Below the pieces are notes generated by a model. That model did not search any database, was not told the origin of the DNA, and saw only the letters and a list, made by a program, of their open reading frames with translations. A stretch of DNA of 64,000 bases, from the IMG/VR virus record IMGVR_UViG_2667527582_000007; one strand, given 5' to 3'. Below, piece by piece: positions 5,908 to 37,233 of the stretch. The stretch comes from a virus. Lineage: Duplodnaviria; Heunggongvirae; Uroviricota; Caudoviricetes. The position numbers and the translations under genes were made by a program. Every line of letters starts with the position of its first letter. Within the stretch, counting starts at the first letter, position 1.

Positions 5908-6086
5908 TGCTGCATTTCCTCTTCTTATTTTGCAGTCGTCTTCATTCATTACCACGTCCAGACGCCAGTGCAGCTTATTCTCCACGTGCCAGTGATTTCG
6001 GATCGCTGTGGCGAATTTCTCAGCGGTTAAATCAGCAGAACTGATATAATATCTGACCGTCATTTCTGGCTCTTTCTTTTGTTCTG
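5908..6086 (-). mobile_element. ISAs1-family (H-repeat) transposase, C-terminal fragment
   Basis: [52 protein letters not shown]. Confidence 0.7.
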
Positions 6087-7442: not shown

Positions 7443-7894
7443 AACTGCGTGTTACGTTCGCCCTGGACTGTTGCGATCGTGAAGCCATAGACTGGGCCGC
7501 AAGCACGGGAGGTTACGATAAAGCGACAGTGCAGGATGTCATGTTAGGAGCGATAGAAAAACGCTTTGGCGATAAAGTACCGGAACAGTCCATCCAGTGG
7601 CTGACAGATAACGGTTCAGCGTATAGAGCGCATGAAACATGGCAGTTCGCCAGAGAGTTGAATCTGGAGCCCTGCACAACGGCAATCAGCAGTCCTCAGA
7701 GTAATGGAATGGCAGAAAGGTTCGTGAAAACGATGAAGGAAGACTACATCGCGTTCATGCCGAAACCGAATGTAAGAACGGCATTGCATAATCTTGCAGT
7801 GGCGATCGATCATTACAATGAAAACCATCCGCACAGTGCGTTGGGTTATCGCTCTCCGCGAGAATATCGACGTCAGCGGGTAACGTTAACTTAA
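7443..7894 (+). mobile_element. IS2-like (IS3 family) transposase OrfB, C-terminal fragment
   Basis: [14 protein letters not shown]...[11 protein letters not shown]...[17 protein letters not shown]...[18 protein letters not shown] matches IS2 InsD (rve/DDE domain). Confidence 0.7.
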
Positions 7895-7935
7895 GATACA
7901 CCCCCTGTCTGGAAATAAGGGGGCAAGAACAATGA

Positions 7936-8688
7936 TCAGATTCCCTGGTGAGTAAGAATTTTACTTTCTGAACTCCTCTGAGAGTATTGACTTGGAGAAA
8001 CACCAAAATAACGTCTAAATACATAAGTAAAGTATGAGACACTGGCATAACCACAGACCTTAGCTACTTTACTAATAGGATAACAACGAGTGCTGAGTAA
8101 ATATTCAGCCATTTGCATCCTTTCATCAAGTATGATCTTACTGAATGATACCCCCTCTTCTTTCAATTTCCTCTTTAGTAAACTTTCGCTGAGATATAAT
8201 CTTGATGATATATCCTTAAGACGCCATGGTGCAGATAAATCCGTATGAATAATCGTTTTAACTTTAGCCTCTGTGCTTTTCAAACATTCAAACAGAAATA
8301 CTCCAAATTGTTTTTCAGAAGAAAATGCAGAGAGACATGTAAAAGCAATAGACTCATCAAAAATTTCTATGTATTCAGCACAGTGATTAGCCCAACTAAT
8401 TAATCCTTTAATTAAACTGAAGTCAGCAAAGTTTATTTTTAAATAAGATGGATATTCCCTACAATCAGAAATATCCCTTAAGTTATTAGCTTTCAAATAG
8501 CGACTAATAAACTCAGCGCCAAAATCCGCCACTATCACTCTTTCAGGATATGTCAGGAAAAAATCTCTAGAGCTAGAGTCGACAAGTACAGATGAACCTC
8601 TCTCCAGAAACACACTCTCTTTTCCGAAATAAACATCAAAGGACTCCAAAATCAATATAACTGAACATGTAGTTGCCATATCATCCAC
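7936..8688 (-). CDS. AraC/XylS-family transcriptional regulator
   Basis: 250-aa ORF with C-terminal HTH region ...KVAKVCGYASVSYFTYVFRRYFGVSPSQY; AT-rich island-like context; exact orthologue not recognised. Confidence 0.7.
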   Translation of the reverse strand: MDDMATTCSVILILESFDVYFGKESVFLERGSSVLVDSSSRDFFLTYPERVIVADFGAEFISRYLKANNLRDISDCREYPSYLKINFADFSLIKGLISWANHCAEYIEIFDESIAFTCLSAFSSEKQFGVFLFECLKSTEAKVKTIIHTDLSAPWRLKDISSRLYLSESLLKRKLKEEGVSFSKIILDERMQMAEYLLSTRCYPISKVAKVCGYASVSYFTYVFRRYFGVSPSQYSQRSSESKILTHQGI

Positions 8689-9263
8689 CCAACTTAACTG
8701 AAACCAGGATGAAGTATATGCATATAAAGTTCACTTTGCCAAACGTCAGTATAAAAAACCACATAAAAAATAGGGTGTGATAAAAAATACCGTAACAATA
8801 AAGCAAAGGATTATAAATTCCGTTACAGTTACAAATGATACTCAAGAAACAATTCCTTAGGAAAAACTTATTTACAGCCAATAAGTAAGACACTTATATG
8901 ATATCAAGTTTTCATAAAACATAACTAGGCTAAATAGCTGCGCCTAATACCGCTACACTTTTGCCAGCCCATGTTTGCCTCCGGGTATTGACCCCTTCTC
9001 TACGCAACTTCAGTTCCCACCACCAACTTTGCGGCAGCTTTGTAGGATCAATGTCTAAAAGAATAATGGTGACCGATAAGAAAACGACTGAATAACTGCA
9101 AATTTTCGCTCAAAACCTTCCTGTCAGATCCATAGCGAATCAAGTGCTGAATGTCACAGTATCGAACAGAAAACAGTGACGATCTAACCCTTCAAGAATA
9201 TTCTACGATTGTTCTGTTTAGGAAAAGCAAGGCGGGAAGTCGGGAGATAAGTCATTGATAAAG

Positions 9264-9325
9264 TGGCGGAGAGAGGGGGATTTGACCCCCCCGGTAGAGT
9301 TGCCCCTACTCCGGTTTTCGAGACC
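9264..9325 (-). other. partial copy of tRNA-Ser(CGA) 3' portion (att-core-like remnant)
   Basis: tggcggagagagggggatttgacccccccggtagagttgcccctactccggttttcgagacc matches the serU 3' ~60 nt with 2 mismatches, then homology ends. Confidence 0.6.
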
Positions 9326-9514
9326 GATGATACAGAGTCGAAAAATCAAAGAGTTAAAAATTTCTCTTGGAATAAATGTCTTAAAATTGTACACGAAAAA
9401 TCAATGAATTACATAACATTAAAGAAGAATATTCCAAGCCTTCTTGAGGCTACCACCTGTTTTCAGGTGTCATTCAGACGTGATTTGCCCCAGATTGGGA
9501 AAGCACGCTTTTTT

Positions 9515-9574
9515 GGTGATGCTGCCAACTTACTGATTTAGTGTATGATGGTGTTTTTGAGGTGCTCCAGTGGC
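9515..9574 (+). mobile_element. IS1 left terminal inverted repeat and 5' end
   Basis: ggtgatgctgccaacttactgatttagtgtatgatggtgtttttgaggtgctccagtggc. Confidence 0.85.
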
Positions 9575-17193: not shown

Positions 17194-17261
17194 ACCCCCG
17201 GTAGAGTTGCCCCTACTCCGGTTTTCGAGACCGGTCCGTTCAGCCGCTCCGGCATCTCTCC
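17194..17261 (-). tRNA. serU: tRNA-Ser (CGA), 3' end lost in gap
   Basis: Reverse complement ...GGAGAGATGCCGGAGCGGCTGAACGGACCGGTCTCGAAAACCGGAGTAGGGGCAACTCTACCGGGGGT. Confidence 0.85.
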
Positions 17262-17354
17262 GTTCAGATGGTTGCCATGATGCCAGGAAATTTGGCATTT
17301 TAACAGTCCCTGTCCGTGCAATTTTGTTCAAGTGACGAGTTTGCGAGCAAAACG

Positions 17355-18152
17355 ATGATTAAGTGGCCCTGGAAAGTACAAGAATCAGCACATCAAACTG
17401 CCCTTCCCTGGCAGGAAGCACTATCGATCCCCCTTTTAACGTGTCTGACGGAACAGGAACAAAGCAAATTAGTCACTCTTGCCGAACGTTTTTTACAGCA
17501 AAAGCGGCTTGTTCCTTTACAGGGCTTTGAACTGGATTCATTAAGAAGCTGCCGGATAGCACTTCTATTTTGCCTACCCGTTCTGGAGTTAGGACTGGAA
17601 TGGCTGGATGGTTTTCATGAAGTCTTAATTTATCCTGCGCCATTTGTGGTCGATGATGAATGGGAAGACGATATCGGTCTGGTGCATAACCAACGTATTG
17701 TTCAGTCAGGTCAGAGCTGGCAGCAAGGGCCTATCGTTTTGAACTGGTTGGATATACAAGATTCTTTTGATGCTTCTGGTTTTAACCTGATTATTCATGA
17801 AGTCGCTCATAAGCTGGACACCCGTAACGGCGATCGCGCCAGCGGAGTTCCCTTTATTCCGTTGCGTGAGGTTGCTGGCTGGGAACACGATCTTCATGCT
17901 GCAATGAACAACATTCAGGAAGAAATCGAATTGGTTGGCGAGAATGCGGCGAGCATTGATGCTTATGCAGCCAGCGATCCTGCTGAATGTTTTGCCGTAC
18001 TTTCTGAATATTTCTTTAGCGCCCCAGAACTTTTTGCTCCTCGTTTCCCTTCATTGTGGCAACGTTTCTGCCAATTTTATCAACAAGATCCTTTGCAGAG
18101 ACTGCATCACGCTAATGATACAGACTCGTTTTCGGCGACGAATGTTCATTAA
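17355..18152 (+). CDS. mtfA: MtfA (Mlc titration factor A)
   Basis: [61 protein letters not shown]...; full length. Confidence 0.9.
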
Positions 18153-18252
18153 TTAACAACTTTGCAGATTAATTAACCAATTGAAATGACTTATGAAATT
18201 TAGTGTTGACAGACAAGGTACCGCTAAGTAATATTCGCCCCGTTCACACGAT

Positions 18253-18328
18253 TCCTCTGTAGTTCAGTCGGTAGAACGGCGGACTGTTAATCCGTATGTC
18301 ACTGGTTCGAGTCCAGTCAGAGGAGCCA
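18253..18328 (+). tRNA. tRNA-Asn (GUU)
   Basis: TCCTCTGTAGTTCAGTCGGTAGAACGGCGGACTGTTAATCCGTATGTCACTGGTTCGAGTCCAGTCAGAGGAGCCA. Confidence 0.95.
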
Positions 18329-18334
18329 AATTCC

Positions 18335-18362
18335 TGAAAAGCCCGCTTTTATAGCGGGATTT
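18335..18362 (+). terminator. rho-independent terminator after tRNA-Asn
   Basis: aaaagcccgcttttatagcgggatttttgc. Confidence 0.5.
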
Positions 18363-18365
18363 TTG

Positions 18366-19316
18366 CTATATCTGATAATCAATTTCCTCTTCACTGCTTT
18401 CCATCACCTGCCGCTTGATATCCTCAACTGACAGTCCTGCATTACAAAGTTCCAGAAAGCGCCAGACATAGTTACGCTGAAGTTGTCCTCGCTTCAGTCC
18501 CAACCAGACAGTATTAGCATCAAAAAGATGCCGCGTATCCAGGCGGATTAAATTCTCTTCCTCTTGTTCGCCACTGGATTGCTCGGCAACTAATCCGATC
18601 CCAAGCCCAAGAGCAACATAGGTTTTAATGACATCAGAATCCTGCGCACTTAATACAATATCTGCCAGCAAACCTTTGCGGGCAAATGCGTCATCAATAC
18701 GTGAGCGCCCCGTAATCCCCTGTCGGTAAGTGATTAACGGCCACTTCGCTATTGATTCCAGCGTCAATGGTGAAATTTGCGTCAAGGGATGATCGTGTGG
18801 AACAAGCAAACTATGGTGCCAACGAAACCACGGGAAGGCGACGAGCTGCGGGTCATTACTCAAACGCTCGCTGGCGATACCAATATCAGCTTCGCCATTT
18901 TGCAACAATGTCGCAATTTCCTGTGGCGTCCCCTGGATTAGCTCGAGCCGAACCTCCGGGAAAAGTTCGCGAAAAGCTTTAATGACCTCTGGCAAGCTAT
19001 AACGTGCCTGAGTATGCGTCGTTGCAATAGTGAGAACGCCAGACGTATCGTTGGTAAACAGGTCTGCAAGCCGACGAACATTACTGGCTTCATTCAGAAT
19101 ACGTTCTGCAATGACCAGTAATGCTTTGCCCGGTTCAGTCATGCCCAGCAGTCGCTTACCTCGTCGAACAAATATTTCGATGCCAAGTTCATCCTCCAGT
19201 TCCCGAATATGACGGCTGACGCCTGACTGTGAGGTAAAAAGCATATTCGCAACCTCTGTCAGGTTGTAATCCTGACGTGCAGCCTCGCGGATTATCTTTA
19301 GTTGTTGGAAATTCAC
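18366..19316 (-). CDS. cbl: LysR-type regulator Cbl
   Basis: MNFQQLKIIREAARQDYNLTEVANMLFTSQSGVSRHIRELEDELGIEIFVRRGKRLLGMTEPG... 316 aa. Confidence 0.9.
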   Translation of the reverse strand: MNFQQLKIIREAARQDYNLTEVANMLFTSQSGVSRHIRELEDELGIEIFVRRGKRLLGMTEPGKALLVIAERILNEASNVRRLADLFTNDTSGVLTIATTHTQARYSLPEVIKAFRELFPEVRLELIQGTPQEIATLLQNGEADIGIASERLSNDPQLVAFPWFRWHHSLLVPHDHPLTQISPLTLESIAKWPLITYRQGITGRSRIDDAFARKGLLADIVLSAQDSDVIKTYVALGLGIGLVAEQSSGEQEEENLIRLDTRHLFDANTVWLGLKRGQLQRNYVWRFLELCNAGLSVEDIKRQVMESSEEEIDYQI

Positions 19317-19417
19317 GGTAAACTCCGGGCAGTTCAGATTTCCCGTTATTGTTAAAGTCTAATGCCCGGCATAACAAATAATAAAAACCCGCATCTTATT
19401 CCATCCCGATATAACAC

Positions 19418-20335
19418 TTAGCTCACCAATTGCCACTGCCTTTTTTCCATCACTGGAGAACTAATCACTGACATTAACAACTCTTTCACTGCCTGTGCCT
19501 GTGGCGATAAGTTCGCTCTGGCGGGTAAATTTAATGACAAAGAGAGACTCATGGAAGGAGTGGTAATGCGTGACATCCACCCATTTACTGCGCCACATAA
19601 CGAACGCGCGGCCGATTCGGGTAATACTGCAACGCCCATGCCGCTGGCAATCGCTGCGGTAAGCGTGGCAATAGACTCAATTTCACCAATAACTTTTGCC
19701 GTGAGTCGCCGTAGGGAAAAAGCCTCATCAACACGAAGTCTAATAGCACTGTAATCACTGGGGAGAAAGAGGTTCATTTGCGCAATAGCATTCACATTAA
19801 CGCTTTGCCCCGGGCAATCTTGAGTTCCTACCAGAAAAAGATCTTCTTTCAGCAAAGCCTGACTGGATACACCAGCCACAGGGGAATGCTCATAAATCAC
19901 CGCCATATCGAGTTGGTGATTTATCAATTTTTCGTTAAGCACTGCACCACTATTTTCATGAAGATAGATAACGATCTCCGGAAATTCAGCGCGAACCGCC
20001 TGTAATAAGGGCATGGTGATGGATGACGCAGCGGTTCCTGGTGCAAAGCCAATCGAGACTTGCCCCGATAATGCCTGACCAACGTTATGCACCGCCAGTT
20101 GGGCCTGTTCACACTGACGTAAAATGGCCCGCGCATGGGTATAGAGAATTTTTCCGGCGTCTGTTGGTGTAACGCCCCGCTTTGTACGGATCAAAAGTTG
20201 TTGATTTAACTCACCTTCCAGTGTGGCAACCTGCTGGCTGAGCGCTGGTTGTGCGATATGCAATACTTCAGCAGCCTGGGTCAGGCTACCAATATCTACA
20301 ATTTTTACGAAGTATTTCAGGCGTCTGAAGTTCAT
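19418..20335 (-). CDS. nac: LysR-type nitrogen assimilation control protein Nac
   Basis: MNFRRLKYFVKIVDIGSLTQAAEVLHIAQPALSQQVATLEGELNQQLLIRTKRGVTPTDAGKILY... 305 aa. Confidence 0.9.
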   Translation of the reverse strand: MNFRRLKYFVKIVDIGSLTQAAEVLHIAQPALSQQVATLEGELNQQLLIRTKRGVTPTDAGKILYTHARAILRQCEQAQLAVHNVGQALSGQVSIGFAPGTAASSITMPLLQAVRAEFPEIVIYLHENSGAVLNEKLINHQLDMAVIYEHSPVAGVSSQALLKEDLFLVGTQDCPGQSVNVNAIAQMNLFLPSDYSAIRLRVDEAFSLRRLTAKVIGEIESIATLTAAIASGMGVAVLPESAARSLCGAVNGWMSRITTPSMSLSLSLNLPARANLSPQAQAVKELLMSVISSPVMEKRQWQLVS

Positions 20336-20661
20336 GTTGCCTCCGGTTTTTAAGAATCGGCCCAAGTGCCGCCATTACTTACAACCAGATTGCAAGATGC
20401 TTGCCAGTTTTATTTTGGTGTTGATGTACAAGCTAACCAACTGTCAAATAAGAGATTATGATAGATTCGTCATTTGCTCCTTTAATCAGCTGTCGCGTTC
20501 CCCTGCCCTATAAAAGGAGGGTATGCACCACGATGGTTCATTACCCAATAAGATTGAAAGCTCACCACTTTGTTGAAATTGACAGCAAACAAACAAAAAA
20601 ATGCATTTCACCCTTTGACATCACCATGCACTGCCATTAATATGCGCCCCGTTCACACGAT

Positions 20662-20708
20662 TCCTCTGTAGTTCAGTCGGTAGAACGGCGGACTGTTAAT
20701 CCGTATGT
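20662..20708 (+). tRNA. tRNA-Asn (GUU), truncated by gap
   Basis: tcctctgtagttcagtcggtagaacggcggactgttaatccgtatgt. Confidence 0.85.
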
Positions 20709-34013: not shown

Positions 34014-35140
34014 NNNNNNNNNNNNNNNNNNNNNNNNNNNNNNNNNNNNNNNNNNNNNNNNNNNNNNNNNNNNNNNNNNNNNNNNNNNNNNNNNNNNNNN
34101 NNNNNNNNNNNNNNNNNNNNNNNNNNNNNNNNNNNNNNNNNNNNNNNNNNNNNNNNNNNNNNNNNNNNNNNNNNNNNNNNNNNNNNNNNNNNNNNNNNNN
34201 NNNNNNNNNNNNNNNNNNNNNNNNNNNNNNNNNNNNNNNNNNNNNNNNNNNNNNNNNNNNNNNNNNNNNNNNNNNNNNNNNNCTTTTTTCTCAGCTATCG
34301 TCCTCTTATTTTGCCGTTACATTTCTTTTTGCACTCTAATGATTAATTTACAATAATAATATCGGTAATTATTGAGTAATAATAAATTGATTATTGCAAA
34401 TGTAATTTAATTCCATCTTCGCGTTATATTCCAATCTTTAATCTCCGCATGGAACAAGTTGCATGCGTGACTATATTAAGACAACTTATAACCACCAAAA
34501 CATTTGCTTTGCAAGCAAAAACAGTGACCATTGACTCTAAGAAAATTCCGATCTATTGTTAGGATCATCAAAGTTACTTAACAGTATTCCGAAATGAAAA
34601 TACAAAGCAAGCTAATTGTCTTATTAAACATTATCATTGCATTTATATTATTTGAGCTTTTAGCTCAAAAATTTGGTTTGAGTACATTATTTTAAAGCAA
34701 GATAAACAATATCGGGCACTCTAGTTTTTATAATTAACAATTAAACGTCCATAAAATGTTATTTACTTTTCTTCGCTATTGTCATATCTTAATATTGTGG
34801 CTTACGCCACTCTACTTTCATCACATTTTGTACGTTTATGTACTCGCCATGAAGCTCTTTCATGGCGATTTTTTATTCTTAATCCAAGAACATACTCCCT
34901 ACCTATAGCAAAATCACTTTTTTAACAAAAGAATAACGTATTTAGGTAATCATTACGAATTTACCCTATAGGTGCTACTGGCCATTCAATATCCGGTGCT
35001 ACTGATGTATCAACACTGTTCAGCAACACCCGATATGTCTTCCATGCCGTCAGTAACGATGTCTCTTCCTCCGTTGCGATCTCCAGCTCAGCAACAGTCT
35101 GAACGTACCAGGAACAGCCTCCTTCAGGGCTTGAAGGATA

Positions 35141-35466
35141 TCAATGTTCGCTTCCTGTTAACTGCCGGACAAGTGCAACCAGTTCGCTTACCTGATTTTC
35201 CAGAGTGCTGATCCGGGTGCCTGCTGTTGCCAGATTTTGACGTAGCGTTGTGTTTTCCTCTTCCAGCGCGGTAACGCGATCATCTGTTTCACGGGCGACC
35301 TGAACAAGTAACCCCGTCACGGCGGCGTAGTCAACATTCAGATAACGTGTTTCTTCACGTAATTCATTGCCGTCAACCGTTGGTCCCTGCAACTCTTCAC
35401 CGTAATGAGTAAACGATCCCACAGCTTCTGGTATCGCCTCCATTACTTCCTGTGCAATAACGCCAG
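35141..35466 (-). CDS. tail fiber/tailspike C-terminal intramolecular chaperone-like domain (Peptidase_S74-like)
   Basis: GVIAQEVMEAIPEAVGSFTHYGEEL...ALEEENTTLRQNLATAGTRISTLENQVSELVALVRQLTGSEH; GxIAQEV motif plus coiled coil. Confidence 0.45.
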
Positions 35467-36925: not shown

Positions 36926-37014
36926 GCGGGGGTACCCGGTGTGTGCAATATACGAAAAAAAAGCCCGTACTTTCGTACGAGCTCTTCTTTAAATATGGCG
37001 GTGAGGGGGGGATT
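36926..37014. repeat. direct repeat copy A: bidirectional terminator plus 19-nt tRNA-Ser 3'-end copy
   Basis: ccggtgtgtgcaatatacgaaaaaaaagcccgtactttcgtacgagctcttctttaaatatggcggtgagggggggatt, then diverges (gactcgc...). Confidence 0.6.
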
Positions 37015-37104
37015 GACTCGCTTCGCTCGCCCTGCGGGCAGCCCGCTCACTGCGTTCACGGTCTGTCCAACTGGCTGTCGCCAGTTGTCGACCCCCGGTC
37101 GGGG

Positions 37105-37177
37105 CTTCTCATCCCCCCCGGTGTGTGCAATATACGAAAAAAAAGCCCGTACTTTCGTACGGGCTTTTTTTTAAATA
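37105..37177. repeat. direct repeat copy B: tRNA-Ser terminator region
   Basis: ccggtgtgtgcaatatacgaaaaaaaagcccgtactttcgtacgggcttttttttaaata; hairpin gcccgtactttcgtacgggc flanked by A- and T-runs. Confidence 0.6.
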
Positions 37178-37233
37178 TGGCGGTGAGGGGGGGATTCGAA
37201 CCCCCGATACGTTGCCGTATACACACTTTCCAG
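37178..37233 (-). tRNA. serX: tRNA-Ser (GGA), 5' part lost in gap
   Basis: Reverse complement CTGGAAAGTGTGTATACGGCAACGTATCGGGGGTTCGAATCCCCCCCTCACCGCCA. Confidence 0.85.

What the first reader, a model, noticed from the sequence alone, without database searches (positions are those of the whole stretch)
9264..9325. Degenerate partial copy of the tRNA-Ser(CGA) 3' region next to an AT-rich island (AraC regulator, IS2 fragment, IS1 end)
A 62-nt stretch matches the 3' portion of serU (2 mismatches) and then loses homology at the anticodon loop. This is the signature of an attL/attR core left by a tRNA-targeting integrase. The true serU at 17194-17261 is itself cut by a contig break on its 3' side. 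The flanking 2 kb is AT-rich and carries an AraC-family regulator (7936-8688) and an IS2 OrfB fragment. I could not tell which side is island and which is chromosome.
Basis: partly seen in the sequence, partly recalled or inferred. Interest (0 to 1): 0.4.

Follow-up and report, generated by a model that had tools for sequence, protein, structure and literature searches.

The report
Fossil serU phage attachment scar
The tRNA-Ser fragment is a real but ordinary scar: the old right-hand junction of a phage that once sat in the serU tRNA gene, carried with 278 bp of host DNA as passenger cargo inside a lambda-like prophage next to the acid-resistance regulator gene patE.

Summary
So the left side is chromosome-derived and the right side (9327-9514) is a phage arm. 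Together they form a complete attR-type junction of a serU-integrating lambdoid phage.

It is not the edge of an island at this genome's serU. In closed genomes the same about 2 kb block lies elsewhere. The block is IS3-family fragment, patE-type AraC gene, 55-bp IS630 end, serU flank, partial serU. In IAI1 it sits in the b region of a lambda-like prophage at att-lambda. In O157:H7 it sits at the distal end of the prophage at thrW. Three isolated phages (ev099, mEp332, PhiR70_1) carry it; in ev099 it lies 2.3 kb from the lambda attP core. The patE|flank junction occurs in 537 of 5,426 complete E. coli genomes.

Best reading: a lambda-bio-like imprecise excision captured the junction and it then spread by phage mosaicism. 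Ordinary; low interest.

The parts
7445..7894 (+). C-terminal fragment (149 codons) of an IS3-family transposase OrfB. It forms the left end of the contig and of the shared module.
   Evidence: Pfam rve and rve_3. Annotated as a partial 'integrase core domain-containing protein' in IAI1, O157 and CDF6. The 'IS2-like' label is only my recollection; it is clearly not identical to IS2.
7936..8688 (-). AraC-family regulator, orthologue of PatE (z0321, OI-8/CP-933H of O157:H7). RefSeq starts it at the ATG corresponding to window 8679 (247 aa).
   Evidence: HTH_AraC and HTH_18. 246/248 positions identical (247 codons plus the stop) to the only AraC gene in the O157:H7 thrW prophage, and 248/248 to IAI1. 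PatE = z0321 on OI-8 according to PMC10877973.
8713..8742 (-). Sigma-70-like promoter candidate upstream of patE (TTGGCA-18-TATACT). It lies in AT-rich DNA, not in the serU flank.
   Evidence: Consensus scan only. One site was found against 2.4 expected in shuffles, so this is weak.
8931..8985 (.). Terminal 55 bp of an IS630-family element. The outer end (TA) is at 8931. The element is truncated internally at 8985, where it abuts the serU flank. This is the illegitimate junction.
   Evidence: 51/55 identical to the end of an intact IS630-family element on plasmid pJNE23-001_1, overlapping the 3' end of its transposase gene. The breakpoint with K-12 is at 8985/8986.
8986..9263 (.). 278 bp of host chromosome: the yodB-serU intergenic DNA immediately 3' of serU (the B' arm).
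   Evidence: 96.8% identical to K-12 2043190-2043467. The same DNA flanks serU in about 5,400 of 5,426 complete E. coli genomes.
9264..9326 (-). 3' 62 nt of tRNA-Ser(CGA) serU, from the CCA end through the anticodon loop to 4 nt of the 5' anticodon stem. This is the displaced chromosomal copy. It is not a tRNA gene.
   Evidence: Alignments. ARAGORN and Rfam call no tRNA here. It carries the chromosomal-type variable arm, as attR of E13 does.
9309..9326 (-). Inferred crossover region (anticodon stem-loop, CTCCGGTTTTCGAGACCG). It is intact in this copy.
   Evidence: In E13 the phage-type variable-arm bases (G-C) are in attL and the host-type bases (A-U) are in attR. Exchange therefore occurred between the variable arm and the end of identity.
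9327..9514 (.). Phage P arm ('arm Y'), the b-region end of a serU-integrating lambdoid phage. It holds ATATTCCAAG-type repeats at 9366-9375(-) and 9429-9438(+), and 18-nt direct repeats at 9339-9356 and 9394-9411.
   Evidence: Contiguous with tfa/stf/lom/J in IAI1, S51, E13, ev099 and mEp332. The same decamer occurs twice exactly, plus a third degenerate copy (TAATTCCAAG), in tandem beside int at attL of E13. All 4 decamer hits (<=1 mismatch) in that 50-kb locus lie within about 115 bp of an att core. Their role as arm-type Int sites is inferred.
9515..9574 (+). Left end of an IS1 inserted in the phage arm. This is strain-specific and causes the contig break.
   Evidence: Not present at this position in IAI1 or the phages. 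It matches an IS1 copy annotated in H1. The CTTTTTT target duplication is shared with contig 34283.
34283..35466 (.). Continuation of the same prophage beyond the IS1 (tail-fibre-assembly remnant and tail-fibre gene end).
   Evidence: 98.8% identical to IAI1 L001 17065-18248. It starts with the duplicated CTTTTTT.
17194..17261 (-). This genome's own serU (5' 68 nt, K-12 type) followed by mtfA and asnT. It is not the partner of the relic.
   Evidence: 99.5% identical to K-12 over 1,163 nt. It has the host-type variable arm. Closed relatives keep both loci, about 1.2 Mb apart.

Best explanation
Window 8986-9514 is a fossil attR (P arm - core - B' arm) of a lambdoid phage that integrates into the anticodon region of serU.

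Integration of such phages supplies a phage-borne copy of the tRNA 3' 62 nt. The original 3' segment is displaced to the far (tail-fibre/b-region) end of the prophage, still joined to its chromosomal flank.

At some point a prophage left serU imprecisely, in the manner of a lambda-bio transducing phage. It took the attR junction and 278 bp of host flank with it. The illegitimate joint is at 8985/8986, inside a truncated IS630-family element upstream of patE.

The resulting block (IS3' - patE - IS630' - flank - partial serU - P arm) now lies in the non-essential b region of lambda-like phages that use other int/att modules (lambda att, thrW). It spreads with them.

In this genome it is a passenger in such a prophage, further broken by an IS1. 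The tRNA piece itself has no tRNA function and is drifting.

Shown: the anatomy, its positions in closed genomes and in phage genomes, and the in-situ serU prophages. Inferred: the imprecise-excision step, the order of events, and the arm-type sites.
For: - Host flank contiguous with the tRNA 3' end, and a sharp loss of homology at the anticodon stem.
- In-situ prophages with int-xis beside or close to an intact serU and the same junction at the other end: lambdoid in E13, e14/SfV-like myovirus in MB15.
- In E13 the phage-type variable arm is in attL and the host-type in attR. This places the exchange in the anticodon stem-loop.
- IAI1 has a complete lambda-like prophage between ybhC and ybhB. 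Its lambda core is at L001 14482-14496 and the relic is 2.4 kb inside it, between the core and tfa.
- O157:H7 carries the same 1,869-bp block between arm X and the partial thrW that ends Sp1/CP-933H.
- Isolated phages ev099, mEp332 and PhiR70_1 carry it: searches show 7443-9514 at 99.2-99.4% identity in mEp332 and ev099, and one search shows 8600-9514 at 99.3% in PhiR70_1. In ev099 the order is int - lambda attP core - IS fragments - patE - relic - tfa.
- The junction at 8986 is identical in 537 of 5,426 genomes, which points to a single origin.
- No genome has patE-flank joined to an intact serU (0 of 5,426).
- The relics carry different private mutations: A->C in IAI1 and the window, C->G in mEp332. 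This indicates no selection on the tRNA.
- In this strain the contig continues into tail-fibre DNA across an IS1.
Against: - The contig is only 2.1 kb, bounded by repeats. Its position at att-lambda in this particular genome is inferred from relatives and was not seen directly. No ybhB or bio contig is in the window.
- The same left part is joined to two different phage arms (Y here and in IAI1; X in O157, CDF6 and ETEC H10407) at exactly the same nucleotide. A single capture does not explain this on its own. It needs a later exchange, either homologous through the 340-bp flank+tRNA or Int-mediated at the core.
- Simple imprecise excision predicts that the DNA beyond the joint is int-proximal phage DNA. 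What is there instead is IS debris and patE, so more than one step is required.
- An origin by deletion within a chromosome that once had patE near serU cannot be excluded.
Confidence: 0.82

Rival explanations
1. It is a live boundary (attL/attR) of an island or prophage currently integrated at serU in this genome. The truncated serU at 17194 would be the other repeat.
For: The junction has exactly the structure of an in-situ attR. The window's serU is cut at its 3' side, so what follows it is unknown.
Against: - In situ, the flank continues into yodB/zinT. Here it stops after 278 bp at an IS630 stub and patE, a junction that in every closed genome inspected (IAI1, SCPM-O-B-12142, MS15047, O157:H7 F8797, CDF6) lies at att-lambda or thrW, and that also occurs in phage genomes.
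- The window's serU has the host-type variable arm.
- No integrase homologue is present in the window.
- The two contigs are not neighbours; the window is a bag of 97 contigs.
Confidence: 0.04
2. The junction was moved by a large chromosomal rearrangement (inversion or translocation through recombination between a prophage at serU and one at att-lambda), not by packaging in a phage.
For: Such events exist. Strain S51 has a hybrid prophage with the serU attR/yodB at one end and int-potC at the other.
Against: - An inversion would bring yodB/zinT along. Here only 278 bp of flank is present and ybhB-bio is the neighbour.
- The same block sits in linear genomes of isolated phages.
- It occurs at two different att sites.
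Confidence: 0.05
3. patE and the IS debris once lay next to serU in a chromosome. Different serU phages (arms X and Y) then integrated there, and each captured the same left flank independently.
For: Two different P arms are joined at the same nucleotide to an identical left part. The left ends of the shared block differ by at least 15 bp between IAI1 and O157. Both phage types do integrate at serU in situ.
Against: None of 5,426 complete genomes has patE-flank next to an intact serU. I did not test whether any genome has patE-flank-partial serU-prophage-serU in situ.
Confidence: 0.08
4. Chance resemblance, or part of an unrelated gene or repeat.
For: None.
Against: 341 nt at 96.8% identity to the serU locus, E = 1.5e-164. 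The boundary coincides with the att boundary of in-situ prophages.
Confidence: 0.01

Closest known systems
attR junctions of lambdoid prophages integrated in tRNA genes at the anticodon-loop sublocation (my recollection: Williams 2002 classification). serU is a documented lambdoid prophage site in STEC (PMC7067040).
   Same: A direct repeat of the tRNA 3' segment running from the anticodon stem to CCA. Host flank lies on one side and a phage arm with repeated decamers on the other. It is identical to the in-situ attR of E13, S51 and MB15.
   Different: It no longer lies at serU or at the edge of its element. It is internal to a prophage that uses another att site, and it has no partner attL or cognate int nearby.
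Lambda-bio / lambda-gal specialised transducing phages (imprecise excision)
   Same: Host DNA contiguous with one att junction is carried in a packaged phage genome, next to an illegitimate joint. It occupies the position of the former attP, at the end of the b region.
   Different: It is a natural, fixed and widespread fossil, with only 278 bp of non-coding host DNA. The phage has since acquired a new int/att module, so it is not defective. The excision event itself is inferred, not observed.
Prophage-borne AraC-like regulators PatE / PsrA / PsrB of EHEC
   Same: The adjacent gene is 246/248 identical to the AraC gene of O157:H7 OI-8 (patE). It sits in the moron region beyond the tail-fibre genes.
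   Different: Here it is in a lambda-like prophage of a non-O157 background. Regulation and targets were not tested. The tRNA relic is not known to be part of its control region.
Re-use of a resident prophage's attR as attB (Sp10 integrating at the attR of Rac; PMC2669165)
   Same: An attR-type site retaining an intact core can serve as a target for a phage with the same specificity. This could explain arms X and Y on the same left part.
   Different: There is no direct evidence here. Homologous exchange through the 340-bp shared DNA explains the data equally well.

Membership tests
tRNA-gene att repeat of a tyrosine-integrase prophage (attR) | Sequence identity to the 3' part of the target tRNA, ending sharply inside the gene | tested here: met
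   9264-9326 equals serU 3' 62 nt with one substitution and one insertion. Homology ends after the anticodon loop.
tRNA-gene att repeat of a tyrosine-integrase prophage (attR) | Host flank on the 3' side of the repeat and element DNA on the other side | tested here: met
   8986-9263 is the K-12 serU flank. 9327-9514 is the phage arm contiguous with tfa/stf.
tRNA-gene att repeat of a tyrosine-integrase prophage (attR) | A partner repeat within an intact tRNA, with the cognate integrase nearby, bounding one element in the same genome | tested here: not met
   This is met for the in-situ relatives E13 and MB15. For this copy, no int is in the window, and closed relatives place it inside prophages at att-lambda or thrW. 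It is a relic, not a current boundary.
tRNA-gene att repeat of a tyrosine-integrase prophage (attR) | Arm-type integrase-binding repeats in the phage arm | tested here: inconclusive
   ATATTCCAAG-type decamers occur at 9366-9375 and 9429-9438, and also beside int at attL in E13. They cluster near the cores, but the counts are not above chance for whole loci and no binding data exist.
Functional tRNA-Ser gene | Complete cloverleaf (acceptor stem, D arm, anticodon arm, T arm) | tested here: not met
   ARAGORN finds no tRNA at 9264-9326 and Rfam gives no tRNA hit. The 5' 28 nt are absent.
Host DNA captured by imprecise prophage excision (lambda-bio type) | Host DNA contiguous with an att junction, carried in a packaged phage genome | tested here: met
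   The block is present in the genomes of isolated phages: 7443-9514 in ev099 and mEp332, and at least 8600-9514 in PhiR70_1.
Host DNA captured by imprecise prophage excision (lambda-bio type) | A novel illegitimate joint between host DNA and phage DNA | tested here: met
   The flank is joined at 8985/8986 to the interior of an IS630-family end fragment. The breakpoint is identical in 537 genomes.
Host DNA captured by imprecise prophage excision (lambda-bio type) | The excision event itself, with loss of the int-proximal phage genes | not testable with these tools
   This is a historical event. Present carriers have a different int/att module (lambda or thrW type).
PatE/PsrA/PsrB prophage AraC-like regulators (neighbouring gene) | C-terminal AraC-type HTH and near identity to z0321 | tested here: met
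   HTH_AraC 1.3e-16 and HTH_18 8.7e-16. 246/248 identical to the OI-8 AraC gene. That this gene is z0321 rests on its position in OI-8.
   The two copies are on unrelated contigs, and the closed relatives inspected keep the relic at att-lambda or thrW, away from serU.

The most novel reading that the evidence does not exclude
The relic is not inert. Because it keeps an intact core and a full P arm, it may act as a portable serU-type attachment site carried by lambda-like phages. Incoming serU-specific phages, or a resident serU prophage's Int/Xis, would recombine with it. That would swap arms (X for Y), build prophage-in-prophage arrays, and move patE between phage backbones and chromosomal sites.
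Probability: 0.1. Interest if true: 0.45.

Novelty: new member of a known kind. Interest (0 to 1): 0.17.

Why it matters
Mostly as a caution for annotation. A partial tRNA next to AT-rich DNA does not always mark the edge of an island at that tRNA. Here it is a scar that travels inside phages. It is a clean natural example of host DNA plus an att junction fixed in viable lambdoid phage genomes. It also shows that the acid-resistance/T3SS regulator gene patE is linked to that scar in about 10% of complete E. coli genomes, on at least two phage backbones and at two att sites. It makes no long-standing question newly testable.

Tried and rejected
- Searched for patE-flank joined to an intact serU-mtfA with a chimeric query. 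None of 5,426 genomes had it, so a simple 'patE is native next to an empty serU' origin is unsupported.
- Looked in the window for serU-type int/xis, lambda-type int/xis, ybhB and yodB. None was found, so the location in this strain could not be shown directly.
- Took S51 as an in-situ example. It turned out to be a hybrid prophage ending at potC, i.e. an inversion, so I replaced it with E13 and MB15.
- The Rfam scan of 9150-9450 gave only sub-threshold hits and no tRNA.
- The terminator scan of the flank found none, so the idea that the serU terminator insulates patE has no support.
- Literature searches for serU att relics were swamped by 'serum' and orthopaedics. The PatE primary paper is not held. 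I found no paper describing this relic.
- The thrW-site relative SW07091 has only a 20-nt serU-anticodon-like stub before arm X. I could not explain it and left it.

Full report
**1. What the window is**

The 64-kb window is not one stretch of genome. It is 97 small contigs joined by runs of 10 N (one run of 269 N). Many of them are fragments of lambdoid prophages, tRNA genes and IS ends. The finding lies on a 2,132-bp contig, 7443-9574. The 'true serU' lies on another contig, 17194-20708. Their nearness in the window carries no positional information.

**2. The observation**

Window 9264-9326 (minus strand) matches the 3' 62 nt of serU, tRNA-Ser(CGA). It runs from the CCA end through the T arm, variable arm and anticodon loop to four bases of the 5' strand of the anticodon stem.
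- It has one A->C change and one extra C in the T-loop C-run.
- IAI1 shares the substitution but not the extra C. O157:H7, S51, E13 and phage ev099 have neither. mEp332 has a different private change in the anticodon stem. The copies are therefore drifting independently.
- ARAGORN and Rfam call no tRNA here.

**3.

Homology to the K-12 serU locus does not stop at the tRNA 3' end. It continues for 278 bp (8986-9263) into the yodB-serU intergenic DNA. The whole block is 96.8% identical over 341 nt, E = 1.5e-164.

That DNA flanks serU in about 5,400 of 5,426 complete E. coli genomes. So the left side of the tRNA piece is chromosome-derived. The right side, 9327-9514, is phage DNA that runs on into tail-fibre-assembly, tail-fibre, lom and J genes in every closed relative inspected that carries this arm. 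The unit 8986-9514 has the anatomy of an attR junction: B' arm, core and P arm.

**4. The in-situ counterpart**

In strain E13 a 41-kb lambdoid prophage lies in this order: asnT - mtfA - serU - int - xis ... J - lom - stf - arm Y - partial serU - flank - zinT.
- Its intact serU carries G-C in the variable arm where K-12 has A-U.
- Its partial copy keeps the K-12 bases.
- The phage therefore supplied the 3' part of the working tRNA, and the exchange took place between the variable arm and the end of identity. That is the anticodon stem-loop, window 9309-9326, which is intact in the window's copy.

The decamer ATATTCCAAG occurs twice exactly, plus a third degenerate copy (TAATTCCAAG), in tandem next to int at attL of E13. 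It occurs twice in arm Y, at window 9366-9375 and 9429-9438. All four hits (at most one mismatch) in the 50-kb E13 locus lie within about 115 bp of an att core. These are probably arm-type Int sites, but that is inference.

A second, unrelated backbone also sits in situ at serU in strain MB15. It is an e14/SfV-like myovirus with pinE and a GIY-YIG gene, here called 'arm X'. Its int-xis lies near serU, separated from it by three small genes, and the same junction is next to yodB. serU is a documented lambdoid prophage site in STEC O145:H28 (PMC7067040).

**5. Where this copy actually lives**

The contig is 99.9% identical to IAI1 over 7443-9514.
- In IAI1 it lies inside a complete lambda-like prophage between ybhC and ybhB-bioA. 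That prophage has a lambda-length int and xis, exo-bet-gam, and lambda-like head and tail genes.
- The lambda core (ACTTTTTTATACTAA, one mismatch) lies just past ybhB. The partial serU is 2.4 kb further in, between the core and tfa. This is the non-essential b region.
- SCPM-O-B-12142 and MS15047 have the same arrangement.

In O157:H7 a 1,869-bp block (window 7458-9326) lies at the far end of the defective prophage integrated at thrW (Sp1/CP-933H, OI-8).
- It sits about 275 bp from the partial thrW repeat that precedes the P4-like element.
- Arm X starts at exactly the nucleotide where arm Y starts here.
- CDF6 shows the same arrangement next to a more complete myovirus prophage. ETEC H10407 matches from the patE|flank junction through arm X in the search output, but I did not inspect its wider context.

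Three isolated phages also carry it. mEp332 and ev099 match 7443-9514 at 99.2-99.4%, and PhiR70_1 matches 8600-9514 at 99.3%. In ev099 the order is exo ... xis - int - lambda attP core - IS fragments - AraC - IS630 stub - flank - partial serU - arm Y - tfa - stf - lom - J. The host-derived flank and the old junction are therefore packaged phage DNA.

**6. The rest of the block**

- The AraC protein is 246/248 identical to the only AraC gene in the O157:H7 thrW prophage. PatE is z0321 on OI-8, an activator of acid-resistance genes and repressor of LEE genes (PMC10877973).
- Positions 8931-8985 are the terminal 55 bp of an IS630-family element. Its outer TA end is at 8931 and it is cut off internally at 8985, where the serU flank begins.
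- That joint is therefore neither an IS insertion junction nor an att junction. It is an illegitimate joint.
- The same breakpoint is found in 537 of 5,426 complete genomes, which argues for one origin.

**7. This strain**

- The contig ends in an IS1 left end at 9515.
- Contig 34283-35466 begins with the same CTTTTTT and continues the IAI1 sequence into the tail-fibre region. An IS1 insertion with its target duplication thus links the two contigs.
- I found no ybhB, yodB, lambda-type int or serU-type int in the window. The att-lambda location in this strain is therefore inferred from relatives.
- The strain's own serU contig is K-12 type.

**8. Mechanism**

The best-supported account has three steps.
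- (a) A serU-specific lambdoid phage integrated and created the attR junction. This is shown by the in-situ examples.
- (b) An imprecise, lambda-bio-like excision, or an equivalent illegitimate event, joined the flank 278 bp from the tRNA to DNA carrying an IS630 copy and patE. This is inferred from the joint and from the block occupying the place of the former attP.
- (c) Exchange of int/att modules among lambdoid phages gave carriers that integrate at att-lambda or thrW. This is shown by the present contexts.

The fact that arms X and Y share the same left part needs a further exchange. It could be homologous recombination through the 340 bp shared with in-situ attR sites, or Int-mediated recombination at the relic core. 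Re-use of an attR as attB has a precedent in Sp10 and Rac (PMC2669165). I cannot tell these apart. A chimeric query found no genome with patE-flank next to an intact serU. This weakens, but does not exclude, an origin in a chromosome where patE lay beside serU.

**9. Function**

I see no evidence of any function.
- The fragment cannot fold as a tRNA.
- It accumulates private mutations.
- The only promoter-like site for patE lies in the AT-rich DNA more than 240 bp away.
- No terminator-like site is found in the flank.

Its likely consequences are passive. It provides 340 bp of homology to the serU locus, and an intact core with a P arm that a serU-type Int could in principle use.

**10. Verdict**

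It is a known kind of feature. I found no paper that describes this particular travelling relic. Interest is low.

Noticed in passing
window 36940-37016 and 37121-37233: A direct repeat of about 77 nt made of a terminator-like flank plus the 3' 19 nt of a tRNA-Ser(GGA)-type gene (serW/serX-like). The second copy continues to the anticodon and is cut by the contig break at 37234. ARAGORN reports no tRNA there. It looks like another short tRNA att duplication.
   Followed up: partly
window 9506-9574 and 34283-34290: An IS1 insertion in the phage arm. The same CTTTTTT lies on both sides and the IAI1 sequence resumes at 34283, so the two contigs are neighbours across an IS1.
   Followed up: yes
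window 8931-8985: A 55-bp terminal stub of an IS630-family element (51/55 identical to an intact copy on plasmid pJNE23-001_1). It forms the illegitimate joint with the serU flank.
   Followed up: yes
whole window: The window is 97 small contigs (57 to about 3,700 bp) joined by N10. Many are diverged copies of the same lambdoid tail and head genes (80-99% identical to IAI1 or E13 prophages). This suggests a short-read draft of a strain with several lambdoid prophages.
   Followed up: partly
L003/L007 (E. coli S51, NZ_CP015995.1 2.807-2.850 Mb): A hybrid prophage with yodB and the serU attR at the tail end and int-xis next to potC at the other end. This implies a chromosomal inversion between prophages at serU and potB/C.
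   Followed up: partly
L014 about 5995-6020 (E. coli SW07091, thrW locus): An SfV/e14-like prophage without the patE block still has a 20-nt serU-anticodon-like stub (CGGTTTTTGAGACCGGTCCG) before arm X, preceded by a lipase gene. Its origin is unexplained.
   Followed up: no
L008 6759-6848 (E. coli E13 serU): The intact serU of a lysogen carries a compensatory G-C pair in the variable arm where K-12 has A-U, contributed by the phage attP. serU alleles could therefore serve as a marker of past or present occupancy.
   Followed up: partly
phage records H166-H169 (Citrobacter phage Chris1; Klebsiella phages KpF5, P7641, ST101-KPC2phi6.3): About 80 nt at 92% identity to the serU 3' segment only (window 9244-9328). 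These are probably genuine attP cores of tRNA-Ser-targeting phages of other enterobacteria.
   Followed up: no
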